Assembly: GCF_963921235.1 (NCBI RefSeq)
Contig: NC_086097.1
Span: 78,680,001-78,744,000, forward strand
Length of the DNA stretch: 64,000 bases
Reading direction: 5' to 3'
DNA from: Mobula hypostoma
Taxonomy: Eukaryota
Shown here: positions 23,737 through 54,248 of the stretch, in pieces
Layout: each line of letters starts with the position of its first letter
Position numbering within the stretch: position 1 is the stretch's first letter
Position numbers and translations under genes: made by a program
Notes under the pieces: model-generated
Told to the model about the DNA's origin: nothing
The model's database searches: none
Seen by the model: only the letters and a program-made list of their open reading frames with translations

Positions 23737-26700
23737 AGAATGGTACAACACAATACAGGCCATTTGACCCACAATGTCATGCCAACCTTTTATCCTATGC
23801 TAAAATCAATCTAATGTTTCCTGCATAATCCTCAAATTTTCTTACATTTTTTTTGTTATAAACTCTGTATGACACTTTTTGAAATTATTTGACAGAAAAG
23901 GAACGGTTGTAGACACAGCTGTGTCCTTGTACACCACAGATTCTGCAAATCTTGGAAATCCTAAGTAATACAACCAAAACGCTGGAGAAACACGAAGTCA
24001 GGCAGCATCTATGGAGAGGAATAAACACTCAACATTTGAGGCTAAGACTCTTCATCGTCAACTGTTTATTTCTCCCCATAGACGCTATTTTTCTTACATC
24101 TATGTACCTACCTTAAGAGTCTCTTAGATGTCCCTCATATCTCTACCACCACCCCCGGCAGTACGTTCCACACTCCCACCACTCACTGTGCAAAGAACCT
24201 ACCTCAGACATTCTCCTATACTTTCTTCCAATCACTTTAAAATTATGCCCTCTCATATTAGCTATCTCCACCCTCGGAAAAAGGTGCTGTCTGCCAACAC
24301 TATCAATCCCTCATCTTCTTATACACCACTAACATCTTTCACCCTCTTTCATTCCAAAGAGAAAAACCCAGATTGCTTAAACTTGCCTCATAAAACAAGC
24401 TCTCTAATCCCGGCAGCATCCTAGTAAGTCTTCTCTATCCCCTCTCTAAAGTTTCCAACATCCTTTCTATAATGAGCTGAACAGAACTGAACACAATACT
24501 CCAAGTTTAATCTAACCAGAGTTTTATAAATCTGCAACATTCCCTTGCAGCTCTCGAACTCAATCCCCCCTGACTAATTAAGACCGACACACCATTCACC
24601 TTCTTAACCATCCTATCAAATTTTGTGGCAACTTTGAGAGATCTACAGACGTGGACCCTAAAATCCTGCTGTTCCTCCATACTGTTAAGAATCCTATCAT
24701 TAACCCTGTACTCTGCCTTCAGGTTTGACTTTCTGAAGAATACTGTATCACAGTTTTCCATATTCAACTCCATCTGCCACTTACTTCTCAACCGAGCTTG
24801 CCTCCTATCAATGTCCCATTGTAACCTATGACAACCTTCTACATTGTCCGCAGCACCACTAACCTTCATGTCACCTGCAAACTTACTAACTCACCCTTGC
24901 ACCTCCTCATCCAAGTTATTGATAAAAGTCATAAAGAGCAGGGATCCCGGAAAATATCCCTGTGCAACACCACTGGCCACTGGCCACCCAGCAGAACACG
25001 CTCCATCTGCAATCACCCTCTGCCTTCTGTGGGCAAGTCAATTCTAAATCCATACAGCCAAATTTCCCTGAATCTCATGACCCCTGACTCTCTGAATGAG
25101 CCTACCATGGGGAACCTTGTCAAATGCCTCACAAAAATCCACATACACCACACCCACTGCCCTACCTCCATCAACTTGTTCTGTCATTCCCTCTGGGAAT
25201 TCAATCAGGCTCATGAGGCACAACTTGCCCTCCACAAAGACATGCTGACTATCCCTAATTGGACTATGCTTCTCCAAATGCTTGTGAAAACTTTCTCTAG
25301 GAATCCTCACCAACAGCTTGCCCACCACTGATATAAGACTCATTAGTCTATAATTCACCAGATTATCCCTATTATTTTTTTGAACAAAGGAACAACATTT
25401 GCCACCTTCCAATCTTCTGGTACTACTCTTGTGGCCAGTGAAGACTCAGACAACATCACCAAAGGTGCAGCAATCTCTTCCTTCACTTCCTGTAGTAACC
25501 TGAGGTATATTCCGTATGGCTCCAGGAACATACCTATCCTAATGCTTTTCAATAGTTCCAAGAAATTCTCTTTCTTAATGTCAACACGTTCCAGTATTTC
25601 AGCCTGTTTTATGCTATCCACACATTCGTGAACGTCCATCTCACTGGTAAATACTGAAGCAAAGTATTCATTAAGGACATCCCTACTTACTCCGACCCAG
25701 GCACATGTTTCCTCTTCTATCACTGCTTGGTCTTACCCTCACTCTAGTCATCCTCCGATTCTTCACATACATGTAGGATGCCTCAGAATTTTCCTTAATC
25801 CTACTCACCAAGGCCTTCTCATGTCTCCTTCTAGCTTTCCCACGTCCCTTCTTAAGCTCCTTCCTGGCTACCTTGTTACTCTCTAGAGCCCTGTCTGAAC
25901 CTTGCTTCCTAAACCTTAAGTAAGCTTCTTTCTTCCACTTGACTAGATGTTCCACATCTTTTGTCAACCATGGTTCCTTCACCCTGCCTCATTGGACAAA
26001 CCTATCCAAAACTCCGTGCAAGTGCTCCCTGAACAAACTCCACATTTCTGTTGTACATTTTCCCGAGTGCATCTGTTCCTAATTTATGCTCCCAGGTTCC
26101 TACCTAATAGCATCATCATTCTCTCTCTCCCATTTAAATACTTCCCCATAGCATGTGCTCCTATTCCTCTCCAAGGCTATAGTAAAGGTCAGGGAGTTGT
26201 GGTCACTGTCTCTGACATCTCGCCCACTGAGAGATCTGCTACCAGGGTTCATTGCCTAGCACCAAGTCAGTATAGCCTCTTCTCTTTTCGACATGTCTAT
26301 GTATTGTGGCAGGAATCCTTCCTGGACACACCTACCAAATTCTACCCATTTAAACCTTTTGCACTACAGAATTGCCAATCAATATTAGGGAAGTTAAAGT
26401 CACCCATGACAATATTCCTGTTATTTCTGCACCTTTCCAAAATCTGCCTCCCAATCTGTGTCTCAGTGTCTAGGTTGCTATGAGGAGTCCATAGAATACT
26501 CCCAATAGTGTGATTGCTCCCTTCCTGTTTCTGACCTCCACCCACACTGACTCAGTAGACAATCCCTCCACCATGGCCTCCCTTTCTACAGCTATGATAC
26601 TATTCCTGATTAGCAAATCCACTCCCCACCTATTTTACCTCTCTCTCCCTGAGCCTTTTGAAACATCTAAACCACAAAACATCCAGTAGCCATTCCTATA

Positions 26701-26830
26701 CTTGTGACAGCCAAGTCTCTGTAATGACTACAACATCATAGTCCCATGTATAGATCCATGCCCAAAATTCATCACCCTTGTTCCTGATACCTCTTACTTT
26801 AAAGTAGACATATTTCAATCCAGCCAACTC
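23737..26830 (-). mobile_element. CR1 LINE (endonuclease + RT, disrupted), interrupted at ~23938-24087
   Basis: ORFs give IVMGDFNFPNIDW, VPEDWKVANVVPLFKK, NYRLMSLISVVGKL, VYVDFCEAFDKVPHGRL. Confidence 0.9.
23938..24087. mobile_element. Fold-back Penelope terminal fragment (decayed hammerhead)
   Basis: agcatctatggagaggaataaaca is followed after ~35 nt by its inverted copy tgtttatttctccccatagacgct. Confidence 0.65.
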
Positions 26831-28273
26831 CATTTGTGCCTATCCACCGCCTATTCTTGAAGTGTTGGGTATGCTGGGTTTAAACTGGAGTTTGAGACTG
26901 GTATATGTATTGCCAAAGTAAAAGTATATGTAAGCAATCAATGGACATTATTGGAGCTTGGTAGGAGGTGAAAGACAAAGAAGTCAGGGTGGGAGTAACA
27001 ACGTGAATTAAAGTGACATGAAACTGGAAGCTCAGAGGGTGTCCTTGTGAATTGACCAGTGATGTACAGCAAAGTGGTAAATTGTGATACACAAAAATAC
27101 TTCTACAAATAAACTTGATGTTGCCATAAGGCCAGATCATCTTTGTAATGCCTTTATGATCTTTATTAAATGAGTAAGCTACCTCAAAGCTCAATTTTAA
27201 TGGTGAGTCTCCATTGCATTTCTTGCTTTTCAAAAACAAATCATAAAATATAACTGTTAAGAAATTACACAATGGGGAATGCATAAAAATTGCAAACTGC
27301 TGGCTTTACAAAAAAGTACAATTCAAGCAATGCAAAGCCATTGGTAAAATTCTAACTTAGGAGTGGGATTCCACAATACAATGTTATAAAAGACACCTGT
27401 TGTACTCTTAAATTCCTGCTTCAATCAAGAAATCAAACTTAAAGAACAACATTAATTTGGTGATTTAGGTTACATTGATCAGAATCTGTAGATTATTTGA
27501 TTGCAATTAGCCTGTATGACTTAAAGGGAGAGTAAGTCCCACTTTATTGCCCCACCTGGTCACCTCCTTTTCCTCTGGGGCCACTGTTGAAGCATCCAGA
27601 TGTGTTCAACCTAGCAGATATCATAGGTAACAGTGGAGAAGCCACATGACAGTGCTCCTTTGTAGATCCCACTTTACCTTCTGGTAAGTGACATTGATAC
27701 CATTACTCATGTACAGGACAAGGACCGAGGCATCCAGAAAGCAAACAGCAGCCAGCTGCAGCACCTTCCAGCTGACTCGCAGTAAAAAGTACTGATTACT
27801 TCATCCCAAGTTTCCTGTTACAGTTTTCTCCATCTTGTCAGATTCAGATGTAAAAGCTTGTAGTTCATCATTGTGTGTCAGCTAAATTCACAAATCAATT
27901 ATTTTCCCATCAAATACCGCTTCAATATGAAAGAGTAAGCAAACGTGGTTCATCCTTGCATGAGGATAAAATAGTTGTGGTTACCCCATTAAAACCAGTT
28001 ACAGAGAGGATCTAGTAAATATTCCTCAAAATGTGACCTAAATCTACTTGGGATTAAAATTAGAATTGAGCTTTAAATATATGGAAATAACAAAGAGCTA
28101 CCAATGAAAGTGACCTCATAGCTATCAGATTTGTGTAAAGTCCCAAATCATTAACTAATGTCCTTGATAAAACAAGACTTGGTCCTCCTTGTTCGGGTTT
28201 GTATGGCACTCCAGTAGTTGTTTTAATTGCCCACTGATATGGTTGAGCTGTCTCAAATCAAACCACAAATTAA

Positions 28274-28960
28274 GGAGAAGGAGAAGATGGCGGCGCGACA
28301 CAGCGCGCTCGGCCTCTTCGGTGAATGAGATCTGTAATCTGTCAAGTAGGGTACCATGCACAATTCTAGTATGATGGAGACAGACGTGAGAGTATGGAGG
28401 AACATCTGGAGAAACTTCTGAAATGCCCGCTTCGCTGCCATGGCTACTGTGTGATCCGGAATCTCCGGAGCAGAAGGCCCCGAATCCTCGGCTTTGCTTG
28501 TTTCAGCAGCTGGGGCAAGGTCGAAGGCGCTCGGCAGAGGATGGTGCTCGCGAAGCTGTATTGGAGGGGCTGGTCGGAGGCTCGAAGTTTTCGGATGGAC
28601 GAACTCAGTGTCGGCTGTGGTCAGATTCTTCCAATGCATCGGCAGCTGTCGGTGCCGGGAGGTTTATGGCAGGGAGCTTCTCTCTTTTGCCGCCTGCTAT
28701 TGGGGACTCAGGAGTCAATCGGAACTTGAGACTTTCTTTTACCGTGCCCATGGTCTGTTCTTTATCAAATTATGGTATTACTATGTAAATTATGCTGTAA
28801 CTATACAGGTATGTTATAATTATGTGGTTCTGTCAGTGTTAGTCTTTGGTTTGTCCTGTTTTTTTGTGATATCAGTCTGGAGGAACATTATATCATTTCT
28901 TAATGCATGTATGCATTTCTAAATGACAATAAACGAGAACTGAGTGTTCTCATAATCTAA
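28274..28960 (+). mobile_element. Non-autonomous non-LTR element (unnamed family), copy 1
   Basis: Colinear with 59859-60530; purine-rich head with AAGATGGCGG, AATAAA, 3' hairpin and TAATC tail. Confidence 0.8.
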
Positions 28961-28964
28961 AATG

Positions 28965-29368
28965 ATCAGGACCCCAAATCTTCCAGGTGAGACAACGCTT
29001 CACCTGCAAATCTGTTGGGGTTATTTACTATACCTGCTGCTCTTGGTGCTGCCTCCTCTGCATCAGTGATACTGAACATAGAATGGGGGATCACTTCGTC
29101 AAGCAACTTTGCTCCATACACCACAAAAGGCAGGAATACCTGATGGGAAATATACTTCGCATTCCCATTCCAACATGTGTGTCCTTGGCCTCCTTTACTA
29201 TCACAATGAGGCCCTGCTCAGATTGGAGGAACAACACCTCATATGTCATCAAGTAACCTCCAACCTGATGACATGAACATCAATTTCTCTAAATTCCAGT
29301 AATTCCCCACCCTCCCTTTCCCTCTTTTTCCATTCCCCATTCTGGTTCCTCTTTCAGCCCTTCTCTTC
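28965..29368 (+). mobile_element. Penelope GIY-YIG/3' fragment
   Basis: RQRFTCKSVGVIYYTCC matches the Penelope C-terminus encoded at 13341-13690. Confidence 0.8.
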
Positions 29369-29369
29369 T

Positions 29370-32300
29370 CAATGTCAGTGGTTCTGAATTATGTACATTT
29401 CTCCCAATTCCATCACCTAGCACGGGTCCCCACCGCCCCCAGAATTCACTATAACAGGCATTGTGAGACTGTCTGGCGCTCGGACAAGCTACCCGGTTTG
29501 GTTCTTGTGTTCCATGGGTGGAGGAACAGCAGGTGCTTATGGCTCATCCAAAGGTCCGTTGACATTATGTGAAACCAGGGGCATGGCAGTGGAGTACTCC
29601 AAATCTTAGAAACATAGAAACATAGAAAACCTACAGCACAATACAGGCCCTTTGGCTCACAAAGCTGTGCCAAACATATCCTTACCTTAGAACCACCTAG
29701 TCTCACCCATAGCCCTCTATTTTTCTAAGCTTCATGTATCCATCCATAAGTCTCTTAAAAGACCCTATCGTTTCTGCCTCCACTGCCACCGGCAGCCCAT
29801 TTCACGCACTCACCACTCTCTGCGTTAAAAAAAACTTACCCCTGACATCTCCTCTGTACCTGCTTCCAAGCACCTTAAAACTATGCTCTCTTGTGCTAGC
29901 CATTTCAGCCCTGGGAAAAAGCCTCTGACTACGCACAAGATCAATGCCTCTCATTACCTTGTACACCTCTATCAGGTCACCTCTCATCATCTTGGTGGGA
30001 TGATTTAAAGTGATCTATTTATATATGTTCAGGATTACCCCTCTTATCTATGATAAAAGTATTTTCTCCACATTCCAAAACATGGAACAGGCCATTGTAA
30101 GGGGGCCTAAGGGGATGTTGGTGTGCGTCATGGCAGATGAAAACAAACGAGGTGGAATGTAAGTCAACCAGAATCCCAAGAGTGCTGTCTGCCATGATGG
30201 GAGGTAAAAATAGATGAAAAGGATCTGAATTTACTGAGGATGGTGTGTTGCATGAATGAGGTCACTGGAGAAAAGTACTGGGAGATACGAAACAGCTTCC
30301 TTTTTCCGCAAGACAAGGTACAGCAGGCATCATAGAGTGGCACTTTCGGTCAATAGGTCTGGCTGGCCTAACGTGGGGCTCGATATTTTATGTGCCAAAC
30401 ATCAAAGAACAATTCTAGATTTACAACGTATGGACAATGCTTTCTTTGAAACTATGTACAACCTTCACACCTCCTGATTCACATCTACACCACAGACATC
30501 CAAATGAATTTTAATCAGTATTGCCTGGTCTGGGATTCACAGCTTTTAGGAACCCATTGTTCAGAGCTCCAGATTAAATCCACAATTCATTTTCAGCCAA
30601 AGTCAATTGCTAAATGTATGTGACCTAAACCCAAAAATTGCTCTAATAATTTGGAGCACTGTTGAGAGGCCAACTAGGTGGTCGTGGCATCAGGAAGGAA
30701 ATCCGTGGCACTCATAATGAGTGCCCGTGTACCAACTCTGCCACGGACAACTGCAGGTACTCCTTTGGAGCAGTTCTAAGCTCTAGGAGGACCCACGGGA
30801 GCCAATCATGCCAAAACTCATCGGTCAGGGAAGCCCTCAGAGCAGCCTTCAAGAAGCAGTGAAGCTGTTTGCGTAGACCATTGGACTGCAAGTGATGCAC
30901 TGTGGTGTGATGTAGCCTAATTCCAAGGTTCTGGGCCATCACAGCCCAGAGGTCTGAAATGAATTGGGGACCGCGGTCAGAAGAAATATCAGATGGGGTG
31001 CCAAACCAAGCAACCCAAGTACTGATGAATGCCTGAGCCACGACTGCAGCCATCGTCAGTGCTGGAGGGACGACCTCTAGCCACCTGGTGGTACGATCCA
31101 CCATGGTAAGAAGGTGCATGGAACTGCAGGGGAGGGGGGAAGAGGACCAACAAGGTACACATTGACAAACCATCGCGCAGGGACCTCTAACTGAACATGG
31201 TGGTTAATTTTTCTCTTTTGGCACCCCACACAAGCTGCAGTCCAATCACGCTGTGCCAAACAAGCTTTTAGTGCAACCATTTCCTGCGAGGCCTTCCAGC
31301 CTGGATGCAACAGTCCATCTGCAATTTGCGGGCATGGCGGGGTGAGGGCGACCAGTTGAGACATCACAATTGGAGACAAACCTCAGCTTCCCTGAACTTA
31401 ATATCAGCCAACTGCAGGCCTGTGACTGCTGTTTGGTAAGTCTGGACCCCTGGGTCAGTAACTTGGTCGGCTGCCATGCCAGCATAGTCAGACCCTATGT
31501 GCACAGCCTCAAAGGCTGGCCATGAGAGGCAATCATCCATGGCATTATTTTCTCCTTGACACATCGTCTATCAGTTGTGAACTTGGATATGTAGGCCAGG
31601 TGGCATTGCTGCCATGCAGACCAAGGGTCAGATGTTTTGGCCATCGCATCACCAGGAGTTTGTGATCAACTAACGCTGTGAATGGGGTTGGTAATAACAA
31701 CATGGGCAGCAACCACCATTGGATTTAGAGACCAGTATGGAGGGGTGAAGCCCAGAGCTATTCGACCAGCGTACAATGCCAAGTCTTGCCATCAAAGGGT
31801 GATGCTGGCAGCACACTCACTTGAGCACCCTTGTCACACCGGAAGTGCCACCTCAAAATGGTCTCCATAATGAACAGTAGATGACCCTGGCAGCTGTAAT
31901 CCACACTGTTCGCAGACGTCCGATGTCTCTGTGCACTGGCACTGTCAAAGCTGCAAGGCAATCAGCACTTCCAAAACGACTGTGGTAAAAACACAGGCCC
32001 GGCTTCATCTGTTTCGCAGCTGCAGCTGTACTTATGTTGGGAGCCTTGCTAACTGGGTTTATAGAGGTAAAGAAAGGAGAAGGAATGATGCATCTCTGCC
32101 CAACTAAGTGTAGACTATCAGCCATTTTAGCAAGCTTCCTATCGTCCTTCATGGGTGCATAATTGAGGGCTACGTGAACTTGATCAGGCATTTGCTGCAT
32201 TGAGAGCTCTTTGAAACCAGAACAAGGATGGTGATTTCCCAGGAGAGACAGCATGTGGTCCTTTTGCTCCAAAGGCTTACCATTGCCAAGGACAGCAACT

Positions 32301-39959: not shown

Positions 39960-40797
39960 TTTGCTCAATAGAAGTGCTTTTGCAAACTCAATGGTTCTTC
40001 ACACAGCCATAGACCACCTGGACAATACAAACTCCTATGTCAGGATGCTGTTCATCGACTATAGCTCTGTATTTCCCACAATCTTGATTGTTAAGTTACA
40101 GAACCTGGACTCTGTACCTGCCTCTGCAGTGGAGTCCTCGGCTTCCTAAATGGAAGACCACAATCTGTGCAGATTGGTGATAACATCTCCTCCTTGCTGA
40201 CAATCAACAATGGTGCACCTCAGGGGTGTGTGCTTAGCCCACTGTTCTACTCTCTCTATACCCATGACTGTATGGCTAGGCATAGCTCAAATACCATCTA
40301 TAAAATCGCTGATGATACAACCATTGTTGGCAGAATCTCAGATGGTGACGAGAGGGCGTACAGGAGTGAGATGTCCCAAGTAGTGGAGTGGTGTCACAGC
40401 ACCAACCTGGCACTCAACTTCAGTAAAATGAGAGTTGATTGTGGACTTCAGGAAGGGTAAGATGAAGGAACATATACCAATCTTCATAGGAGGGATCAGA
40501 AATGGAGAGAGTGAGCAGTTTCAAGTTCCTGGGTGTCGAGATCTCTGAGGACCTAACAGGATCCCAACATATCAATGCAGCTATAAAGAAGGCAAGACAG
40601 TAACTATACTTCATTAGGAGTTTGAAGAAATTTGGTATGTCAACAAAAACACTCAAAAACTTCTATAGATGTACCATGGAGAGCATTCTGACAGGCTGCA
40701 TTGCTGTCTGGTATGGGTGGGGCTACTACACAGGACCGAAAGAAGCTGCAGAGGATTGTAAATTTAGTCAGCTCCATCTTGGGTACCAGCCTACAAA
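39960..40797 (+). mobile_element. Rex1/Babar LINE, 5' part of the copy split by the chromovirus
   Basis: [38 protein letters not shown]; resumes at 49573. Confidence 0.9.
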
Positions 40798-43117
40798 GTA
40801 CCTGTCACCAGGTTTGGATAAGACCCAAGTGCGGAGTGAGAAACACTGAAGTGGATCGATAGTTCACAAAACTTTAATGCGAACAGTGTTAAAGGGAAAA
40901 TAAAACAATAAAGGCTAGGCCAAAGAGGGCCATTAACTAAAACTCTGAAACGGGAAACGAAGCCCGCATTGCAGCTGAAAAGAACATCTAAACATTAAAC
41001 AAATACCGCTAGTCTTCAGAGTCGATTTCTCAGGCAAGGCCGATGTTAGCAAAAGCAAGTCACTGCTGTGCTCTGTCCATGTCTCGACAGGCACTACGAC
41101 AACAAGTATGGAGTTCAATACTATCACGATTAAATAATTACCTGACATGTGCAAATTCACAAGCGCAATTGCCGTATTTACTGTGCTGCCGAATCCGTGA
41201 TTGTGACAGGGCCCCCCTCTCTCTGCGCAGCCCCTGAGGCGCCACAGACCTGTGTCCGCTGGAAGTCCCAGATCAGCAACTTGTCCAAAATGTCCTTTGC
41301 TGGGATCCAAACACGTTCTTCTGGGCCATACCCCTCCCAGTCCACAAGGTACTGGACATTATCACGTACCCAGCGAGATGCCAGGAGGCGGCACACGGTA
41401 TAGACAAGGGAACCATCTACCAGGGGGGGAGGAGGGGGAGGTGGGGTGACTGGGGCCAGGGGAGAGGTAGTAATGGCTTGAGCTGGTAAACATGCAATAC
41501 TGGGTGGATTTTCATTTGATGCTGGTAGATGTTATCTATAGGACACCTTGTTGACAGCCTTTTCCACTACAAACGGTCCCACATAGCGCGATGCCAATTT
41601 CTGGTTCTCGACTTTCAGGGGAAGATCCCTAGATGCCAACCAGACCGCCTCTCCTGGCTTGAATGGCCTTACCTGTTGACAAGAGTCAGTCAGCCTGTTG
41701 GGAATGCTGTTTCTGGGCACGCAGCAGAGAAGCCCTGGCTCGACTCCATGTGCGCTTGTGGTGCTGGATCATCTGTTCGGCTGCAGGAACTCCTACGTCA
41801 ATCTCCTGATCGGGGAGGAGCGGGGACTGGAATCCCTTCTGACATTCAAAGGGAGACATACCGGTGGAGGACGACTGGAGGTTATTGTGAGCGATCTCTG
41901 CCCAAACCAATTGGGAGCTCCAGAACGTGGAGTTGGAAGAAGCAAGACAGTGCAGGGTTGTATCCAACTCCTGGTTCACTCTCTCAGTCTGGCCATCAGA
42001 TTGGGAATGGAAGCCAGACGAGAGGCTGGCCGTGGCTTCTACAAGAGAGCAGAAAGCCTTCCAAAAGTGGGAGTGAACTGTGGTCCACGATCAGACACTA
42101 TGTCTTGAGGAAAACCATGGAGCCTGAACACATGTTGAACCATGAGTGTGACAGTCTCACGAGCTGATAGGAGCTTGGAGAGGGCAATGAATTGGGCAGC
42201 CTTGGAAAATAGATCCATATCGACCAAAATGGTGGTGTTTCCATTAGATGGGAGCAGACCAGTAATGAAATCTACTGAGAGGTGGGACCAGGGGCGGAGG
42301 GGCACAGGCAGTGGACATAACAGACCCGCAGGACGCTGGAGTGATGTCTTGTTCTGAGCGCAGGTGGGACAGGCAGATACAAAGTCGTGGACATCCTGGG
42401 ACATAGGCCACCAAAATTGTCTCTTTATAAACTCTTGAGTCTGTTGATTTCCTGGATGTCCAGCTAGACGGGAGGAGTGACCCCATTCCAACACTTTGGA
42501 ACGCACCACAACAGGGACAAACAGCCGATTGGGAGGTCCCCCATCCAGGCCTGGATCTGATTGTTGGGCAGCCCTCACCTCTGCCTCTATTCCCCAGTTC
42601 ACCGGAGCAGCTACACACAAGCAAGGAAGATTGGGCTCTGGATCGGCATTGTCCTCAGATCTGTCGAACTGCTGGGAGAGAGCGGTGGCCTTTGTATTCT
42701 TGCTGCCGGGACGATAAGTGAGGACGAAATTGAACCATGTGAAGAAGAGAGCCCACCGGGCTTGACGAGAGTTGAGTCTCTTAGCATCCTGAATATAGGA
42801 GACGTTCTTGCAATCTGTCCAGACCAAGAATGAATGCTTTGCCCCCTCCAGCCAGAGTGGCCATTCCTCCAGGGCCTCCTTGACAGCCAGAAGCTCCCGG
42901 TTCCCAACGTCGTAATTCCTCTCAGCTGGAGTCAAGCAATAGGAAAGAAAGGCACAAGGATGCAGCCGGCTATCCGCAGACGAGCACTGAGAGAGGACTG
43001 CTCCAATGCCCACTTTGGATGCATCCACCTCGACAATGAATGACTGAGATGTGTCTGGGTGTTGCAACAGCGGGGCAGTGGTGAAACATTGCTTTAGCTG
43101 TGAAAATCCTTTGTCGG

Positions 43118-43242
43118 CATAGTCATAGTCATAGTCATACTTTATCGATCCTGGGGGAAATTGGTTTTCGTTACAGTTGCACCATAAATAATTAAGTAGT
43201 AATAAAACCATAAATAATTAAATAGTAATATGTAAATTATGC
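43118..43242 (-). mobile_element. Short LINE 3' tail copy with (ACTATG)n
   Basis: Nearly identical to 44728-44856; directly abuts the Gypsy RT/RNase H coding sequence. Confidence 0.9.
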
Positions 43243-44727
43243 ATTGGACTGCTGCTGCTAAGTTAACAAATTTCACGACACATGCCAGTGATGATAAACT
43301 TGATTCTGGTTCTGACTCGGATTCGGATTTGTGGGCACAGCTCGACACATCTTGGATATCGGCCTTCCTTCCATGACGTCTGTCTACCCTTCTCACTTCC
43401 TTGATAAAATAGTCAATATAATTCAAGATCTCAGTTCCCTGGACATTCTCTTTTCTCCCCCATCCAACTGGGCAGAAGATACAAAAGACTGAAGCACATA
43501 TCACCAGCCTGAGGACAGCTTCTATTCCACTGTCATAAAACTATTGAACACCCCACTAGTACGATAAGAATGGACTCTTTACTTGCAATAAATAAATGAT
43601 CCATACAGTCCCAGGTCTCTTCTTCATATTTTCCCCCTGGCTCTGCAACTTATTATCTCTTGCATGCTCATCAATTCCCATGTGCTCTTTACCTACATTA
43701 AGTAGTCCATTACCAGCATGTCTTTGGAATGTGCACAGAAACCTTAGTAGTCACAGGAGAATTTCATATTCCGCACAGATAGTACTTGAGGTCAGATTTG
43801 AATCCAGACCTGAAGATGTAGGTTTGCAGCACTGATTGCTCTGCCATCAAGAAATATTCTTTGATTTTTTTAATCAATTGGTGCTGTTTTCCAATTGTAA
43901 TTGTTCCCTTTAGACTGATACATTTTTCAGCAATATCTAATTCCATTTTGAAAATTAATGGAAAATCTAATTCAGCCGTGTTTCTGGGTCATGCATTTTA
44001 GGTCATAGTAACTCTGCTCTGATTCTTCAGAAAGCTACCTTAAATCTGCATCTACTAATCTACTCACCTGCGGAAAATGCCTCAAGGTAATCCTTTGAAG
44101 CCATAACTCACAGTCAGTGGCAGCACCAGATATTTTTTCTTGCTGGTGCTACAGTGGGGCTGAATTATTCAGTGATGGTGCTGAGAGATGTACCCTATGG
44201 TAATATGTATTCGCAAGGCCAGACGCGTGACGTTCAAAAGTCCGTTTCAAGCATTATGTGCCTACTATAAATGCCTCTGTTGATTCACAAGCAACAGCAA
44301 TTGATAAATATAATATAGAAGTAAACTGTGACAGTGTCAACAGCTTCAGAGACAATCTGGGCTACACAGAGCACAAACAAACCAACAGAGCGTCCGACCC
44401 ACAGCGCACAACGTGAATCACGCACCAATCCCACAATCAGCATCAAATGCATGCTTTTCAACTGAAAAGCACAACACTAACCCACAATGTCCACTGCTAT
44501 TCGCATTACATAGACAGACAATGCCAAAAGATACACTGTTATTAAAGTCAAATAAGGCAAACAACAGATGCAAGGCTCTACCAGGAGTTGGACAAATCGT
44601 ACTCTGACCATGCAATACCTCAATGAATTCAGCTATTGAATTTAAAACGAAAATCAACAGAATCACCGCTTGGAAGTCCAAGCAAAACCAGTAGGCTTAA
44701 TAGCAGTAAATGTAATAGTTTAGGATT

Positions 44728-46143
44728 TAGTCATAGTCATTGTCATAGTCATACTTTATTGATCACAGGGGAAATTGGTTTTCGTTACAGTTGCACCATA
44801 AATAATTAAGTAGTAATAAAGCCATAAATAATTAAATAGTAATATGTAAATTATGCCAGGAAATAAGTCCAGGACCAGCCTATTGGCTCAGGGTGTCTGA
44901 CCCTCCAAGGGAGGAGTTGTAAAGTTTGATGGCCACAGGCAGGAATGACTTCCTATGACGCTCTGTGTTATATCTCGGTGCAATGAGTCTCCAGCTGAAT
45001 GTACTCCTGTGCCCAACCAGTCCATTATGTAGTGGATGGGAGACATTGTCCGAGATGGCATGTAACTTGGACAGCATCCTCTTTTCAGACACCACCGTCA
45101 GAGAGTCCAGTTCCATCCCCACAACATCACTGACCTTACGAATGAGTTTGTTGATTCTGTTGGTGTCTGCTACCCTCAGCCTGCTGCCCCAGCACACAAC
45201 AGCAAACATGATTGCACGGGCCACCACAGACTCATAGAACATCCTCAGCATCGTCCGGCAGATGTTAAAGGACCTCAGTCTCCTCGGGAAATAGAGACGG
45301 CTCTGATCCTTCTTGTAGACAGCCTCAGTGTTCTTTGACCAGTCCAGTTTATTGTCAATTCATATCCCCAGGTATTTGTAATCCTCCACCATGTCCACAC
45401 TGACCCCCTGGATGGAAACAGGGGTCACCGGTACCTTAGATCTCCTCAGGTCTACCACCAGCTCCTTAGTCTTTTTCACATTAAGCTGCAGATAATTCTG
45501 CTCACACCAAGTGACAAAGTTTCCTACCGTAGCTCTGTACTCAGCCTCATCTCCCCTGCTGATGCATCCAACTATGGCAGAGTCATCAGAAAACTTCTGA
45601 AGATGACAAGACTCTGTGCAGTAGTTGAAGTCCGAGGTGTAAATGGTGAAGAGAAAGGGAGACAAGACAGTCCCCTGTGGAGCCCCAGTGCTGCTGATCA
45701 CTCTGTCAGACACACAGTGTTGCAAGCACACGTACTGTGGTCTGCCAGTCAGGTAATCAAGAATCCATGATACCAGGGAAGCATCCACCTGCATCGCTGT
45801 CAGCTTCTCCCCCAGCAGTGCAGGGCGGATGGTGTTGAACGCACTGGGAAGTCAAAAAACATGACCCTCACAGTGCTCGCTGGCTTGTCCAGGTGGGCGT
45901 AGACACGGATCAGCAGGTAGGCGATGGCATCCTCAACTCCTAGTCGGGGCTGGTAGGTGATCTTGAGGGGATCTAAGTGTGGCCTGACCATAGGCCGGAG
46001 CAGCTCCAGAACAAGTCTCTCCAGGGTCTTCATGATGTGGGAGATCAATGCCACCGGTCTGTAGTCATTGAGGCCGCTGGGGCACGGCATCTTCGGCACA
46101 GGGACGAGGCAGGATGTCTTCCATAGCACAGGAACCCTCCGGG
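44728..46143 (-). mobile_element. Young Rex1/Babar-type LINE, 5'-truncated
   Basis: NDYRPVALISHIMKTLERLVL, GAPQGTVLSPFLFTIYTSD, QKFSDDS, LNVKKTKELVVD, SFLPVAIKLYN; (ACTATG)n tail. Confidence 0.93.
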
Positions 46144-46337
46144 TTCGTCTGTCCAATGGAATCCTGCCGATGTCTTCTTGGTGAGTGCATTAATAGGAAC
46201 CACGATAGAGCCGAAATGGCAATAAAAGTTTGCAAGCCCCATGAAGCGCCGTACCTGTTTGACTGCAGACAGTTTGGGCCACTCTGCAACTGCCTGACCT
46301 TTACTGCGGTCCATTTGAACACTGGATGAGGTACGTA

Positions 46338-46780
46338 CAGTTGAAATCAGAAGTTTACATACACCTGAGCCAAATACATTTAAACTCAGTTTTTCACAAT
46401 TCCTGACATTTAATCTTAGAAAACATTCCCTGTCTTAGGTCAGTTAGGATCACTACTTTATTTTAAGAATGTGAAATGTCAGAATAATAGTAGAGAGAAT
46501 GATTTATTTCAGCTTTTATTTCTTTCATCACTTTCCCAGTGGGTCAGAAGTTTACATACACTTTGTTAGTATTTGGTAGCATTGCCTTTAAATTTTAACT
46601 TGTGTCAAACGTTTTGGATAGCCTTCAAAAAGCTTCTCACAGTAAGTTGCTGGAATTTTGTTCCATTCCTCCAGACAGAACTGGTGTAACTGAGTCAGAT
46701 CTGTAGGCCTCCTTCCTTGCACACGCTTTTTCAGTTCTATCCACAAAACAAAGGTGTATGTAAACTTCTGATTTCAACTG
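46338..46780 (-). mobile_element. Internally deleted Tc1/mariner IR-DR transposon, Sleeping Beauty-like
   Basis: TA TSDs (46336-7, 46781-2); 29-bp perfect terminal inverted repeat CAGTTGAAATCAGAAGTTTACATACACCT; inner DR CCCAGTGGGTCAGAAGTTTACATACACT near 46535; transposase C-terminus [32 protein letters not shown]...FKGNATKY* (46566-46746). Confidence 0.95.
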
Positions 46781-49572
46781 TAATAAACCCAAAAATGACA
46801 CCTGGTCTTTATGGAATTCACATTTTTCAGGCTTGGCGTACAGGTTGTTTTCAAGAAGGAGTCTGAGTACTCTCCGGACATGCTGGACGTGCTCCTGATG
46901 AAACCGGGAATAGATGGGGATGTCATCTGAATACACAAACTGGTTCAACATGTCCCTGAGCACATCGTTAACCAAAGCCTGGAATACAGCGAGGGCATTG
47001 GCCAGACCAAAAGGCATCACCAGGTATTCATTAGATGTGTTGAAAGCCTTTTTCCACTTATCCCCTTCTCTTATGAGAATCAGATTGTAAACATTGCGCA
47101 GATCAATTTTGGAAAATATGGTTGCTCCCTGGAGATGTTCAAACGCAGACGCCAGCAAGGGAAGAGGGTAGTGGTTCTTCACAGTGATGTTGTCTAGGGG
47201 CCGATAATCGATGCAGGGATGGAGCTTGCCATCTTTCTTGTTCACAAAAAAAGAAGCCCACTCTTGCCGGTGAGGTTGACGGAGGGATAATCCCCATGCT
47301 CAATGCCTCCTTAATGTATTCCACCATGGCCACCGTTTCAGGACAAGAGAGGGAAAAGAGCCGGCCCCAGGGAGGACTATGACACAGTCGTACGGCTGGT
47401 ATGGGGGCACGGTGGTGGCCTTTCTTTTATTGAAAACCTCAATGAGATCTGAATATTCACTGGAACCCAGACTGGTCCACATCCCTTAGCTGGCACAGGA
47501 GAGGATTCATGGAACGGAGCTTGAGCTGGACCCAGACAGGTAGACAGGCATGCCAGTCCCCACTCTTGGAGTACCTTCAGAGACCAATCAATCCATGGGT
47601 TATGTCGGGATAACCAGGGGAGACCAAGTACCAGTGGCAGTTCAGGTGAATTAACCAGATAGAAAGACATTTCTTTATGATGGTTGCCTTCGAGCACCAG
47701 TTGGAGAGTTTGGGTGGAAAGGTGGATCTGGCCAGTTCCCAGAGGTTGACTGTCCAGTGCCTTGATGTTGATCTTTTCTCTTAATTCCTGAGTTGGAACT
47801 CCCATCTTTGAGCGAGAGAGATGTCCATGAGATTCCTGGCTGCACCAGAGTCGATAAGCGCCTTAAGTTCATGGGTCTGAGACCTCCACGACAAGGAACT
47901 GCAAGCATTACAGAATTAGGGAAAGCTGACTGAAGAGAGAACCGACCCTTCAGGATTACCCTCCTTGCTGACAGGCATTCTTTTTCACCGAACACTTGGA
48001 ACATGCCGCTCAGAAGTGTCCTGGATCACCACAATAGAGACAGGAACCTGTTCTCCGGCGCCGCTCTCGTTCCTCCTGAGACAGGTGCATGCACCCCACT
48101 TGCACAGGCTCCTCAGTGTCCGTGGGCTGGGTGGTGAGGGAGGGGAAGAGGGGAGGAAAGACGATAATCAGGTGGGGTGTAGGAAGTTTGAAACATTCTT
48201 TCCCTGTGCCACTCAGTCACCCGGTCGTCAGCTCAAATAGCAAGATTAATCAGGTCATCCAGACTATTCTGCTCATCCCAGATGGCGATCTCATGCTGGA
48301 CCCCTGCCTTCAGTCCAACCCATCTCCACTGCAAGGGTACGGAATTTAACTGCATAGGCTCTCACCGTTCCTCTGCCTTGGTGCAGGTCCAAGAGTCGGT
48401 GGGCAACCTCCTGACCCCATACTGGAAGATCTAAAACCCTCCCTTAACTCCACCACGAAATATCGAAACGACTGGGCTGCGGGGTATCCTTGCTCCCATA
48501 AAGCGTTGAACAGGCTGAGTGGAGGTCCATCAAGAAAATTGACCATGTACACCAGTTTTATAATCCACATCAAAATAACCAGGCTGGGCTTGGAATGTCA
48601 GCTCGCATTGGATAATAAAATTCTTGCAGCCATCAGGATCACCAGAATATCTGCCTGGTGGTGGAATACTCAGTTCTTGTATGGACACGGGTGTCTGTGG
48701 GGGTCCAAATGTGGGAGTCAGCTCTGGTCCAGGCGCGAGAGCCAGTTTTGATCCAGGAGTGGGAGCATTAGTAGCAGAGATTGTAGGGCAGCAGAAAAGG
48801 AGGACCTGCGAGATGCTGGGAGTGGGACTGAGGCGGCCTGAGTCTGCTGAATTGTGTTGGTGAGAACGTTAATGGCTGTTAACTGATGCTGGCTGTTCAC
48901 AGTAAGTTCGTGGACGGCAGCCGTGAGTGCAGAAATTGCAGACACCTGAGTCTGGTTGTCTGCTGTGAGCTGTTGAACAGTTGCAGCTAGGGACGACACC
49001 TGTTCCTCCAAGTGAGACTGGGCTTTTTGGCACGAGATTATCTACCTCATTACCTCCATAACATCACTGAGAATAGATTCCATTGCCTGTAGCCTGTACC
49101 CTACCTGACCAATGAGTCTCACAGCCAAGGTCAGCTGCTCTTGCTCTGCTGGGTTCATCTTTGTGCGTTTGAGACTTGCTGCCACAAGGTTTGGACATGG
49201 CCCAAGTGCGGAGTGACAGACACTGAAGCAAGTCGATAGTTCACAAAGCTTTAATGCGAACAGTGTTAAAGGGAAAATAAAACAACAAATGCTAGGCCGA
49301 ACAGGGCCATTAACTAAAACCCTCAGACAGGAAATGAAGCCTACACTGTGGCTGATATGAACATCTAATTATTAAACAAATACCACTAGTCTTCAGAGTC
49401 AATACAAATAACAGCGTAGCGTTGCTGTGCTCTGTCCAAGTCTCAACAGGCACTACAATGACAAGTATGGAGTTAAATGCTATCACGATTAAATAATTAG
49501 CTGACATGTGCAAATTCACAAGCGCAATTGACGTATCTACTGTGCTGCCAGATCTGTGGTTGTGACAGTACT

Positions 49573-49968
49573 CAGGACATCTTCAAGGAGCGGTGTCTCA
49601 GAAAGGTAGTGTCCATTATTAAGGGCCCCCAGCACCCAGGGCATGCCCTTTTCTCACTGTTACCATCAGGTGGGAGGTACAAAAGCCTGAAAGCACACAC
49701 TCAGTGATTCAGGAACAGCTTCTTCCCCTCTGCCATCCAATTCCTAAATGGACATTGAACCCGTGAACACTACCTCACTTTTTTTATATAAATTATTTCT
49801 GTTTTTGCACAATTTTTAATCTATACAATATACATATACTGTAATTGATTTACTTATTTATTTATTTTTTTCTATATTATGTATTGGATTGAACTGCTGC
49901 TGCTACATTAACAAATTTCATGACATATGCTGCTGATAATGGACCGGATTCTGATTCTGATTCTGATT
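49573..49968 (+). mobile_element. 3' remainder of the Rex1/Babar host LINE
   Basis: Continues ctacaaagtac|caggacatcttc across the Gypsy insertion; (GATTCT)n tail. Confidence 0.9.
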
Positions 49969-51518: not shown

Positions 51519-52596
51519 CATTGTTGCATATTTTTAAAATATTTACATAGCTCCACTAGCAGGTACTTAATAGAGAAAAAAATCTTTCTTTTATTTTTTG
51601 GTTTAGCCTAAAATGCCTTTTTACTGCCTATCCCATATTGCTTGAGAAGGCGCTAGTGAGCCATATTCCTGAACCACTGTGGTCCTCCTGTGAAGGAATT
51701 CCCAAGGCAGTTCCAGGATTTAGACCTAGCAACAATGATGGATTGGTGATAAATTTTCAAGTCAGAATGGACTGCAAATTGGAAGGCAAAATACAAACAG
51801 CTGGCAGTGTTCTTTGTTGCTTGCAGCCTTTGTATTTTGCAGTTTAGGTATGGGTTTGGAAAGTGTTGCCAGGGCAGGAAACTGCAGCACATTTTGTAGA
51901 CAGTACACGTGTAATGAATGTAATACCACTAGTTGCTAACAAGATTCTCAGTTGGGGCTCGTTCACTTACTCCATGACTGACAAGCAAAAGTTGAGTCCG
52001 AGAGCAGAAGCAAAACTGTAAGATTGATGGGAGAAAGGGGTAAGACAAGAAGGTAAGGAATTATATTGACTCAACTTAGAACTGGGCATACTATGCTTAA
52101 TTATTCCTTGTAACTTGTTGGAAGACATCACTCAGGGGTGTGCAGGTTTTGTCATCATTATGAAACAGTAGAACACATTCTTTCACAATGTGAAGCATAT
52201 AAGGTTGAATGCAGGCTGCACTATTATCTTTGGGGGTCGAAAGTTTTCATTTATAAACTTTACTAAGTTATGGAAGTGAATTTAATTTAATTCACAATAT
52301 TGTCTTTCATTACTTACAGTGTTTTGCGGGTAATTTAGTTTTCATTCAATAAAGAACTAGTAGGGGTTTTATTTCCCAACTCTCTACACCACACTCTAGC
52401 CCAGTTGGTGGTGGTAATGCACCTGTAAGTTGGACTGCCAACCACCATTAAATCAGAAGAAAAAGAAGAGGCAACAAATAATAAACTGGGCATCATTACT
52501 CTTATCCTGTAAACGAATAAATGAAAAATCTGAAAATCCACAAACTCCTTTGCTTGAAGAATGTTTACAGCAGACCTGTAATAAGTTGTTACCTAC

Positions 52597-52849
52597 CTGT
52601 CCAATGCAATGACTGTAAAGCTGAGGACAGTGACTGAACAGAAGACTTTGTGCAGGAATTTGATGATTTTGCAGAACAGCAGGGTATAAATCCACCAGCA
52701 GCAGTATGGATTGGCACTCAGAATGATGTCGAAAGGCACACAAACAACACTTGCACAGATTCCAGCGCAGGCCAGGTTTTTGATGAAACGATTTGTGACG
52801 GACTTGAATACTGTTGTGTGGCACGTTGACCACAATACCATTAGATTTC
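52597..52849 (-). CDS. GPR176: GPR176 (orphan class A GPCR), internal coding exon (TM1 end to TM3)
   Basis: Translates (G)NLMVLWSTCHTTVFKSVTNRFIKNLACAGICASVVCVPFDII...IALDR. Acceptor ttttgatacAG at 52851-52850; donor AG|GTAGGT at 52596. The exon is 253 bp with phase 1/phase 2 ends. Confidence 0.96.
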
Positions 52850-54248
52850 CTGTATCAAAATTAAGTAGCAGAATGGTGAGAAACATTGAGGAATAAAATG
52901 CTGCAGAGACCCTACGAGGTTTTATTTAGAAATCACACTCTTTTTAACATTGTGCTTTAAGACCTGGGCATGTAAAACAAAAATGATTAATTTTACATGT
53001 TTCACAAAAATGAAAAAGAAACAATTGAATGGATGATAAACAGAAATATAATGTCTTTAAAATTCTATGTGTATCTGAAACCAATGTTCTCCTCTGCTCT
53101 CCTGAAAATACCTGCTAATCCATTTTCCACATATTCTAATATCACCCAGTGTTCTTTAAAACTCTTCCTTTGATGTCAGTGAGTTATATTGCACTACTTG
53201 ACTATGTACAGAGTTACAGTCACAATTAACCCCCGAACAGGCTGAGGGAAAATAGTCAGAAATAGCTTTTTTTTTGTACCTTCAACACCAGGTAGAGACA
53301 TAACCTGTAACAATCTTCTCTCTTACCAAGGTTTTTTAAAAAAAGTTTTGACATGAAATATTAATTCATTTGCTCTTTCCACAGATTCTGCCCTGTTGAG
53401 AGAATCCAACATTTTTTGGCTATTATATCATATTCCTGATCTAAGTAATACTTGAGTTAAGATGACTCAAGACAAAACCAGAACTTAAAGCTAAGTAACA
53501 TGATTTATATGGGGCAGTAGCACAAGAAAGGGGTATCAAATCATGAGGGAAGTTATCTGAATTCTTTTATAAGTCAAGCATTTTAATAAATCTGCTATTC
53601 CTCGGTCTTCATATTAGCTCTGACAGTGGATAAATTTTGCAAACATAGTTCCAGTCTGTCCAAAGTTTTCTTCAGCTGACTCCAATAAATAATCAAGGTT
53701 CAAGGAGAAAAGCTGTAAGATATTGGATGACCAAGCCTAAATGAATTTGAACCTTGCACCATATTATCCTTGCAGGTGCTGGTATATGATTTTGTGGAAG
53801 CAAAATTAACAAGACAAAATTAGCCAGACTCCAGACTGAGATTTTTTCTGTATTCATTTGTTGAATGTGGAAATTCTCACTTGCCCTGTTTGAGAACTGC
53901 ATTACTGAAAAAAAAATGGTTTGTGAAGGTATTCCAACTGTATTATCCAGAAGTTTAACTTAATGACAATGACCAGCTATGCATTTCCAAGTCTGAATGG
54001 CATGGGACTTCAAAGTAATCGTGCATCTGACAGTGTTTCCACGTGTTTGTTCTTCTTGTTCTGTGAGTTTGAAAGGTGGGCATGATATTGAAGAAGCCTT
54101 GAGAAGTTCCTGCTGTGTATTTTATGCCTGATATACATTTCAACCATTGTGAAGGAGGGACTGAATGCATAATGTGGTGTAACGCCTGATTACGATTCCT
54201 ACTGCTATGATGTAGGTATTTCACTTTAGTAGTTTTCTGCAAAAGCAC

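What the first reader, a model, noticed from the sequence alone, without database searches (positions are those of the whole stretch)
46338..46780. Sleeping Beauty-like Tc1 transposon in a probable cartilaginous fish: horizontal-transfer candidate
Seen: TA-flanked element with IR-DR architecture (outer and inner DR about 200 bp apart) and a transposase C-terminus ending FKGNATKY*. Knowledge, from recall: the whole non-coding 46338-46562 stretch reads almost letter for letter like the right IR/DR of the salmonid Tc1 family from which Sleeping Beauty was rebuilt. Inference: near-identity in non-coding DNA is not expected after the chondrichthyan/teleost split. The element sits inside a Gypsy that sits inside a LINE, so it is young and embedded in host-type repeats, which argues against contamination.
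Basis: partly seen in the sequence, partly recalled or inferred. Interest (0 to 1): 0.8.

Follow-up and report, generated by a model that had tools for sequence, protein, structure and literature searches.

The report
Dead Sleeping Beauty-type transposon in ray
This is a dead, internally deleted copy of a Sleeping Beauty-type jumping gene sitting in a devil-ray genome, and its family is so close to the salmon-type element that it likely crossed between bony fishes and rays rather than being inherited, a known kind of event in a host group where I found no report of it.

Summary
Window 46338-46780 is a TA-flanked, 443-bp, internally deleted Tc1 IR/DR element. It keeps a complete right IR/DR, the last ~60 transposase codons (broken by a 2-nt deletion before KFKGNATKY*) and only a 33-nt left stub.

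Paralogous Gypsy copies show the uninterrupted site with a single TA, so it is a real insertion.

The host is a myliobatiform ray, most likely Mobula hypostoma. One dead copy elsewhere in the genome is 100% identical to a protein annotated in that species, and the host RAG1 core is 97% identical to a stingray's but 74% to a salmonid's.

The family has thousands of copies. Its per-column majority is 97.3% (coding, dS 0.04) and 96.5% (right IR/DR) identical to an intact Sleeping Beauty-type element. On a tree the ray copies form one clade, sister to the salmonid type and nested among teleost elements.

Horizontal transfer is therefore well supported. Direction, donor and date are inferred.

This copy is ordinary for its family (3.2% from the majority), and the abundant forms I examined lack a start codon.

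This scan noted the same family in at least eight other windows of this genome.

The parts
46336..46337 (.). TA, one copy of the target-site duplication
   Evidence: Six of six paralogous Gypsy copies aligned have one TA here.
46338..46565 (-). Complete right IR/DR and 3' untranslated stretch of the element (non-coding)
   Evidence: 46338-46562 is identical to L064 at 217 of 225 positions. It differs from the ray majority at 3 of 228 sites and from L064 at 11 of 228.
46347..46364 (.). Outer direct-repeat core (18 nt)
   Evidence: family D1.
46544..46561 (.). Inner direct-repeat core (18 nt), 197 nt from the outer one
   Evidence: family D1.
46566..46747 (-). Remnant of the transposase gene: stop codon and about the last 60 codons, with a 2-nt deletion after 46593 that shifts the frame
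   Evidence: Insertion 'TG' behind 46593 in other copies.
46748..46780 (-). Left-end stub: terminal inverted repeat with the outer repeat only, joined straight to the C-terminal codons (internal deletion of about 1.2 kb)
   Evidence: The junction pattern is found once in the genome.
46781..46782 (.). TA, second copy of the target-site duplication
40802..49568 (-). Host Ty3/Gypsy (chromovirus-type) copy that received the insertion. LTRs at 40802-41209 and 49179-49568. RT at 46784-47299, RNase H and integrase at 42042-43217, chromodomain at 41181-41531
43125..46144 (-). LINE fragment (RT at 45363-46189) nested in the same Gypsy
   Evidence: Gypsy paralogues run on from window 43124 to 46145. RVT_1 and ALKBH8_N hits. 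Repeat boundaries at 46142-46145 (table 7).

Best explanation
This is a dead, internally deleted 443-bp copy of a Sleeping Beauty-clade Tc1/mariner transposon, inserted at a TA inside a Gypsy retroelement of a devil-ray genome; its family likely reached the ray lineage by horizontal transfer from bony fishes or from a source shared with them.

Shown: the anatomy, the TA duplication, the host class, the size of the family, and its near-identity to the Sleeping Beauty type in coding and non-coding DNA.

Inferred:
- A transposase supplied in trans bound the direct repeats and cut and pasted either a longer parent or this short form into the TA.
- The internal deletion would be an aborted gap repair.
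- The family entered the ray lineage once and burst, since the tree is star-like.
- It then died. The abundant forms that I examined (the two-right-ended form and the form without a 5' UTR) have no start codon.
For: Anatomy.

Real insertion: 6 of 6 aligned Gypsy paralogues run on across the site with one TA.

Host:
- G000:C1:220903497-220904102 equals residues 1-202 of a protein annotated in Mobula hypostoma at 100%. The other 149 scored copies are at most 88%.
- The host RAG1 core is 97% identical to Hemitrygon akajei, 88% to Amblyraja, 86-88% to sharks and 74% to Salvelinus.

Family size: 1354 DNA candidates and 33,934 protein candidates in the first look.

Similarity. The per-column majority of 74 unique ray copies was compared with the intact element on L064. 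The L064 transposase is 99% identical to P0001; P0001 matches SB100X over the whole catalytic domain and is 93% identical to a Salmo trutta protein.
- Coding DNA: 27 of 1018 sites differ; dS 0.041 (9 synonymous changes), dN 0.023.
- Right IR/DR: 8 of 228 sites differ.
- Left IR/DR: 18 of 223 sites differ.

Tree: 9 ray frames form one clade (98/93), sister to the salmonid-type clade (100/98). Prochilodus and Coilia come next, and other teleost Tc1 elements lie outside.

Sequencing runs:
- Two coded organisms hold the element at very high depth, with L064-type letters at 46420, 46424, 46454, 46532 and 46563-46565. They have nothing on 45900-46295 and only a little on the conserved RT part to the right.
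- Four other coded organisms and a skin metagenome hold the ray letters together with host repeats.

This copy: it carries the ray state at 18 of 18 diagnostic sites and is 13 of 410 positions from the ray majority.
Against: - The nearest DNA comparator (L064) is an unnamed metagenome contig. Named bony fishes (Salmo trutta, Oncorhynchus, Coregonus) support the comparison at protein level only.
- dS rests on 9 changes.
- The 74 copies are the best-scoring hits of three searches, so their mean divergence (K2P 0.036) is a lower bound on the family's age, and the majority only approximates the founder.
- The ray clade is sister to the salmonid type, not nested inside it, so the direction is not shown.
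- The distribution among other rays, skates, sharks and chimaeras could not be mapped, because no other cartilaginous-fish genome is held and run organisms are coded.
- The left IR/DR is less similar (91.9%) than the right.
- Whether the 443-bp form itself moved is open. Its junction is unique in the genome, and the one similar short copy (L002) has its breakpoint 7 nt away.
Confidence: 0.85

Rival explanations
1. Horizontal transfer happened, but not from bony fish into the ray. Either the ray lineage was the donor to the salmonid-type lineage, or both took the element independently from a third carrier such as a parasite.
For: On the tree the ray clade is sister to the salmonid-type clade, not nested within it. 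A 2025 note reports salmonid-type Tc1 relatives in the fish parasite Anisakis (PMC12441823; I saw only the search listing and the start of the abstract).
Against: The next outgroups are all teleost or unnamed sequences (Prochilodus, Coilia, then Nothobranchius and Astyanax). The published survey finds the SB clade in 107 ray-finned fish species and one mollusc (PMC9777934, passages read). The diversity therefore lies in bony fishes.
Confidence: 0.2
2. Vertical inheritance: the element was in the common ancestor of cartilaginous and bony fishes and stayed nearly unchanged.
For: None beyond presence in both groups.
Against: dS is 0.041 and non-coding identity 96.5% between the ray majority and the Sleeping Beauty type. 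The highly conserved host RAG1 core is only 74% identical in protein between this host and a salmonid. Ray copies decay freely (mean K2P 0.036 from their majority, many stops). The tree contradicts the species tree.
Confidence: 0.02
3. Contamination or misassembly: bony-fish DNA was wrongly placed in a ray assembly.
For: The first impression of a salmonid-like sequence in a ray.
Against: The insertion has a TA duplication inside a host Gypsy with about 977 first-look candidate copies, and paralogues give the empty site. Copies are spread over many chromosomes. There are 53 diagnostic sites at which a median 95% of ray copies carry the ray state. The structural forms differ from L064's canonical layout. 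Four other coded organisms hold the ray type together with host repeats.
Confidence: 0.01
4. On the local structure only: a longer copy inserted here and was cut down in place by aborted gap repair after an excision, rather than the 443-bp form arriving as a small non-autonomous element.
For: The junction is unique in the genome (1 match, the window itself, at up to 2 mismatches). From knowledge, not tested here: Sleeping Beauty needs inner and outer repeats at both ends for efficient movement, and this copy has only the outer repeat at one end.
Against: A second short copy on another chromosome (L002, 448 bp, 93.5% alike, own TA flanks) has nearly the same breakpoint. That could mean one deletion followed by a jump.
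Confidence: 0.5

Closest known systems
Sleeping Beauty (SB10/SB100X) and the natural salmonid-type Tc1-like elements (SB clade of DD34E/Tc1)
   Same: TA target, IR/DR ends with two direct repeats about 200 nt apart, and a 340-aa DD34E transposase ending FKGNATKY. The ray majority is 97.3% identical in coding DNA and 96.5% in the right IR/DR to an intact SB-type element. It is the sister clade on the tree.
   Different: The host is a ray. There are 53 diagnostic differences from L064 in all, 16 of them amino-acid changes. The abundant forms I examined are rearranged: a two-right-ended form of about 1.62 kb with 410-438-nt inverted ends, and a form that joins the left IR/DR to codon 3. Neither has a start codon. 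This window's copy is a 443-bp deletion product.
Horizontal transfers of Tc1 elements between teleosts and lampreys (Kuraku et al. 2012, PMC3516227; search listing and start of abstract seen only)
   Same: A Tc1 element shared at high identity between bony fishes and a lineage that split from them hundreds of millions of years ago.
   Different: The other partner is a lamprey, a parasite of fishes, and I did not compare the Tc1 family involved. Here the partner is a filter-feeding ray and no vector is evident.
SB, SB-like, ZB and ZB-like survey (Jia et al. 2022, PMC9777934; abstract, section 3.5 and passages read; supplementary tables not readable)
   Same: The same clade definition and the same structure. 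The paper finds horizontal transfer common for these families.
   Different: That survey lists the SB clade in 107 Actinopterygii and one mollusc, with no cartilaginous fish; only 'ZB-like' occurs in one Chondrichthyes species. The names Mobula, Amblyraja, Callorhinchus, Rhincodon, Chiloscyllium, Scyliorhinus, Leucoraja and Pristis do not occur in the supplementary text held, which was cut when stored.
Tc1/mariner expansion in skates and rays (Nat Commun 2025, PMC12361510; passages read)
   Same: Reports Tc1/mariner at 2.30% of ray genomes and 3.28% of skate genomes, against 0.14% in sharks and 0.03% in a chimaera, with at least one burst in rays. This fits the huge family seen here.
   Different: The word 'horizontal' does not occur in that paper's main text. 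It does not tie the expansion to the Sleeping Beauty clade or to transfer.

Membership tests
Tc1/mariner IR/DR elements, Sleeping Beauty (SB) clade | TA target-site duplication | tested here: met
   TA on both sides. A single TA in 6 of 6 aligned paralogous empty sites.
Tc1/mariner IR/DR elements, Sleeping Beauty (SB) clade | Long terminal inverted repeats, each with an outer and an inner direct repeat about 200 nt apart | tested here: inconclusive
   Met at the right end (46347-46364 and 46544-46561), and met for the family (canonical copy L079 aligns to L064 over 2-1638). Not met at this copy's left end, which keeps 33 nt with the outer repeat only.
Tc1/mariner IR/DR elements, Sleeping Beauty (SB) clade | DD34E transposase with paired-like DNA-binding domain | tested here: inconclusive
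   This copy holds only about the last 60 codons, frame-shifted. Family members read through to 350 aa and their relatives carry PF01498 and PF13358. I did not check the catalytic residues one by one.
Tc1/mariner IR/DR elements, Sleeping Beauty (SB) clade | Groups with Sleeping Beauty and salmonid elements rather than with other Tc1 families | tested here: met
   Tree: the ray clade is sister to the salmonid SB-type clade (87/84 for the joint node), and that pair is separated from other teleost Tc1 elements at 100/99. The C-terminus matches SB100X at E 1.3e-20.
Horizontally transferred transposon (usual three criteria) | Element similarity far above that of host genes | tested here: met
   dS 0.041, coding identity 97.3%, and 16 amino-acid changes in 338 codons. 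The host RAG1 core is 74% identical in protein to a salmonid's. I could not compute host-gene dS because no bony-fish DNA is held.
Horizontally transferred transposon (usual three criteria) | Element tree conflicts with the species tree | tested here: met
   The ray clade is nested among teleost elements (midpoint root only).
Horizontally transferred transposon (usual three criteria) | Patchy distribution among the host's relatives | not testable with these tools
   No other cartilaginous-fish genome is held, and the organisms of the runs are coded. Only indirect support: Tc1/mariner content is 0.14% in sharks against 2.30% in rays (PMC12361510).
MITE-like non-autonomous derivative that multiplies as its own family | Many copies sharing the same internal deletion | tested here: not met
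   The junction pattern matches once, the window itself. Of the 40 places scored, only L002 besides the window's own place spans the whole 443 bp, and its breakpoint lies 7 nt away.

The most novel reading that the evidence does not exclude
A Sleeping Beauty-clade transposon crossed from bony fishes into the devil-ray lineage tens of millions of years ago. It then multiplied to thousands or tens of thousands of copies, mostly as rearranged forms without a start codon (one with two right ends). This would be the first record of this clade in a cartilaginous fish and a concrete cause of the Tc1/mariner expansion reported in rays.
Probability: 0.6. Interest if true: 0.55.

Novelty: new member of a known kind. 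Interest (0 to 1): 0.4.

Why it matters
Horizontal transfer of Tc1 elements is well known among ray-finned fishes, and between them and lampreys. In the papers I could search I found no record of the Sleeping Beauty clade in a cartilaginous fish.

If the reading holds:
- It extends the host range of the best-studied vertebrate transposon across the deepest split of jawed vertebrates.
- It gives an origin for part of the Tc1/mariner expansion in rays.
- It offers natural rearranged substrates (two right ends, or one-sided repeats) that bear on what the transposase needs at its ends.

This particular 443-bp copy is one ordinary dead member among thousands.

Tried and rejected
- Viral contigs with P0001: 9 pattern matches, none a relative.
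- PLSDB plasmids with a full ray copy, distant mode: no match.
- The look-up of sequencing runs: organisms are coded and no run holds half of the words or more. Species could therefore not be named, and the source sample was not recognised.
- Gaps in cover in the laid runs are not used as evidence on their own. I use only the pattern 'element present with L064-type letters, no cover on 45900-46295'.
- Supplementary tables of PMC9777934 were unreadable (0 rows). The Chondrichthyes species carrying 'ZB-like' is therefore unknown to me, and the tables may bear on the claim that the SB clade is unreported in cartilaginous fishes.
- Zhang et al. 2020 (PMC7070016): the main text contains none of the words cartilaginous, shark, Chondrichthyes, skate, Callorhinchus or lamprey. 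I did not open its supplements.
- Look-alikes of this stretch in other genomes of the scan: none.
- 'Gypsy inside a LINE': an RT frame lies just outside the left LTR (40095-40457, + strand), and a short LINE-like repeat lies beyond the right LTR (49885-49968). Their strands do not fit one LINE split by the Gypsy, so this stays unresolved.
- I did not search systematically for an intact autonomous copy. L079, the one canonical full-length copy examined, has a 154-aa open frame at its start.

Full report
WHAT IS THERE

Window 46338-46780 is bounded by TA on both sides. Its 31 terminal bases, TA included, are perfectly complementary (46336-46366 against 46752-46782). An 18-nt core occurs twice in direct order, at 46347-46364 and 46544-46561, 197 nt apart. 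That is the outer and inner repeat of an IR/DR end.

Read on the minus strand, 46595-46752 gives 52 residues that match residues 171-220 of Sleeping Beauty SB100X (PDB 5cr4, E 1.3e-20). A second frame then gives KFKGNATKY and a stop. The change of frame is a 2-nt deletion after 46593 relative to other copies.

Toward 46780 the coding remnant is joined directly to a 33-nt terminal stub. The element is thus a complete right end, about 60 codons, and the tip of the other end. Roughly 1.2 kb of a 1.64-kb element is missing.

IS IT A REAL INSERTION?

The right flank (46784-47299, minus strand) is a reverse-transcriptase domain and belongs to a repeat with 977 first-look candidates. In 11 paralogous copies, the sequence homologous to window 46145-46337 is followed within a few bases by the sequence homologous to 46788 onward. 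In the 6 that I aligned there is a single TA at the site, and the length fits exactly once the element and one TA are removed.

The same paralogues run on from window 43124 to 46145. The stretch 43125-46144, which carries a LINE-type RT, is therefore a second insertion in the same Gypsy. The Gypsy's LTRs are 40802-41209 and 49179-49568, 86-90% alike. What lies outside the LTRs is unresolved.

THE HOST

The window lies at C1:78680001-78744000 of a 3.48-Gb assembly in 200 pieces.

A protein search with a ray copy returned, among others, a gene model named in Mobula hypostoma whose first 202 residues are dead transposase. Exactly one place in the assembly matches those 202 residues at 100%; the other 149 scored places are at most 88%. 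Because every dead copy carries its own mutations, this ties the assembly to that species or a very near relative.

Independently, the host RAG1 core (601 aa) is 97% identical to the stingray Hemitrygon akajei, 88-89% to a skate and an electric ray, 86-88% to sharks, and 73-76% to teleosts, including 74% to Salvelinus. The host is a myliobatiform ray.

THE FAMILY IN THIS GENOME

The 443-bp query found 1354 first-look candidates, and the 40 places scored beyond the short terminal repeats are 93-96% identical. A 216-aa query found 33,934 candidates. These are lower bounds for some things and may include related families for others, so I say thousands to tens of thousands.

Three structural forms appear.

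- Two-right-ended form. In 24 of the 29 loci other than the window's own (two of them are the far ends of the same elements), a second inverted match that includes the C-terminal codons lies about 1.2 kb away. In L003 the arms are 438 nt and 97% complementary. All 150 scored matches start within the first 10 residues of the query, whose first 28 residues are the junction read-through. The 350-aa open frames of this form begin in the junction and have no methionine before about residue 100.
- Form without a 5' UTR. In 19 of 20 loci found with the N-terminal 50 residues of P0001, positions 1-223 of the L064 element are joined directly to position 394, that is, to the third codon, so the start codon is lost. 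A skin-metagenome contig shows the same junction (table 7).
- Canonical form. One locus (L079) aligns to L064 over 2-1638 at 91.8%.

Short derivatives. L002 on another chromosome is 448 bp, 93.5% identical to the window's copy over its whole length, and has its own TA flanks. Its breakpoint lies 7 nt from the window's. The window's junction occurs once in the genome.

HOW CLOSE IS IT TO SLEEPING BEAUTY?

The best protein relatives of a decayed ray copy are three unnamed 340-358-aa proteins (88-89%). Next come Salmo trutta (84%), Oncorhynchus mykiss (83%) and Coregonus (85% over 72% of the query). Other teleost Tc1 transposases are at 50-65%.

P0001 matches SB100X along the whole catalytic domain, and also matches the two DNA-binding subdomains solved separately. 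It is 93% identical to the Salmo trutta protein.

A metagenome contig (L064) carries an intact element that encodes a protein 99% identical to P0001, with both ends and TA flanks.

To remove copy-specific decay I took the per-column majority of 74 unique ray copies. There were 82 loci, and 8 were dropped as the same genomic copy fetched twice. Against L064 the majority differs as follows:

| Region | Sites differing | Identity |
|---|---|---|
| Coding | 27 of 1018 | 97.3% |
| Right IR/DR | 8 of 228 | 96.5% |
| Left IR/DR | 18 of 223 | 91.9% |

In the coding region there are 9 synonymous and 18 non-synonymous changes, giving dS 0.041, dN 0.023 and 16 amino-acid changes.

The copies differ from their majority by a mean K2P of 0.036 (0.029 without CpG sites; range 0.017-0.057). 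They are the best-scoring hits, so the family as a whole is likely somewhat older.

The window's copy is 13 of 410 positions from the majority and has the ray state at 18 of 18 diagnostic sites. It is a typical member.

TREE

Nine ray frames of 304-351 aa were analysed with 20 relatives. The ray frames form one clade (98/93) with unresolved, star-like internal structure. That clade is sister to the salmonid-type clade (100/98). The pair is joined at 87/84, with inner branches of 0.022-0.027. Prochilodus, Coilia and an unnamed sequence come next, and the whole group is split from the other teleost elements at 100/99. The root is a midpoint root only.

SEQUENCING RUNS

Organisms are coded, so this is a test of pattern, not of names.

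Two large runs of two organisms (E, F) lay 26,000-32,000 contigs on the element. They carry L064-type letters at 46420, 46424, 46454, 46532 and 46563-46565, have nothing on 45900-46295, and have only a little on the conserved RT part to the right. Their loose ends outside the element are AT-rich.

Runs of four other organisms (A-D) and a skin metagenome carry the window's letters at those sites, together with the host's LINE and Gypsy repeats.

The two sequence types thus belong to two kinds of genome.

INTERPRETATION

The following points are inferred from knowledge, not computed here. Cartilaginous and bony fishes split roughly 450 million years ago, and synonymous sites between them are saturated. 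A dS of 0.04, together with 96.5% identity in non-coding DNA and free decay of the ray copies, cannot be vertical descent. Contamination is excluded by the insertion anatomy, the copy number, the ray-specific letters and the ray-specific structural forms. Horizontal transfer is therefore well supported.

Direction into the ray is favoured because the surrounding diversity is teleost (PMC9777934), but the sister relation leaves a third-party source open.

With assumed neutral rates of about 1-3 x 10^-9 per site per year, or lower in cartilaginous fishes (recalled, not measured), 3-4% decay means some 10 to 40 or more million years. In relative terms, the copy (3.2% from the majority) is younger than the Gypsy it sits in, whose LTRs differ by 10-14%, that is 5-7% per LTR.

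HOW THIS COPY LIKELY AROSE AND WORKS

It does nothing now. It has no coding capacity and only one complete end.

Movement of the family would have needed a transposase supplied in trans by autonomous copies, which I did not look for systematically. The transposase would bind the direct repeats and paste the element into TA.

The internal deletion fits aborted gap repair, which is common in this superfamily (knowledge). Whether it happened here or before arrival is open, at about even odds.

WHAT IS KNOWN

- Jia et al. 2022 (PMC9777934; abstract, section 3.5 and passages read) list the SB clade in 107 Actinopterygii and one mollusc, and only 'ZB-like' in one Chondrichthyes species. Their tables were not readable to me.
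- A 2025 paper (PMC12361510; passages read) reports Tc1/mariner expansion in rays and skates without mentioning horizontal transfer.
- Zhang et al. 2020 (PMC7070016) does not mention cartilaginous fishes in its main text.
- Searches for horizontal transfer with Tc1 and cartilaginous, Chondrichthyes or elasmobranch terms gave no paper whose title or abstract start (all that I read of most) reports this clade in a cartilaginous fish.

I therefore rate it a new member of a known kind.

This scan's earlier notes on at least eight other windows of the same genome reach the same reading. They are not independent evidence, but I re-derived host, near-identity and the two-right-ended form myself.

Noticed in passing
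L003:1498-3123 and 23 further loci: The commonest form among the best hits has two right ends. The left IR/DR and the first 19 codons are replaced by an inverted copy of the right end including the C-terminal codons, giving 410-438-nt inverted arms and an element of about 1.62 kb with no start codon.
   Followed up: partly
L080-L098 (19 of 20 loci): A second form joins the left IR/DR (L064 element positions 1-223) directly to the third codon, deleting the 5' UTR and the start codon. The same junction stands in a skin-metagenome contig (table 7).
   Followed up: partly
G000:C1:220903497-220904102 (L061): A gene model named 'endoribonuclease LACTB2 isoform X2' in Mobula hypostoma consists of 202 residues of dead transposase plus a 40-residue LACTB2 tail. 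It is either a transposon-initiated isoform or an annotation artefact.
   Followed up: no
window 52596-52925, minus strand: Open frame with a rhodopsin-family 7TM match (PF00001, E 1.9e-12): a receptor exon or pseudogene.
   Followed up: no
window 43125-46144: LINE fragment with RT and an ALKBH8_N-type match, nested in the same Gypsy copy as the Tc1 element.
   Followed up: partly
window 14001-16000 and 24001-26000: Strong composition shifts: GC 0.54 with GC skew +0.41 in the first stretch, GC skew -0.415 in the second.
   Followed up: no
L002 (G000:C59:37606598-37607045): A second short derivative (448 bp) with nearly the same breakpoint as the window's copy, at another TA site.
   Followed up: partly
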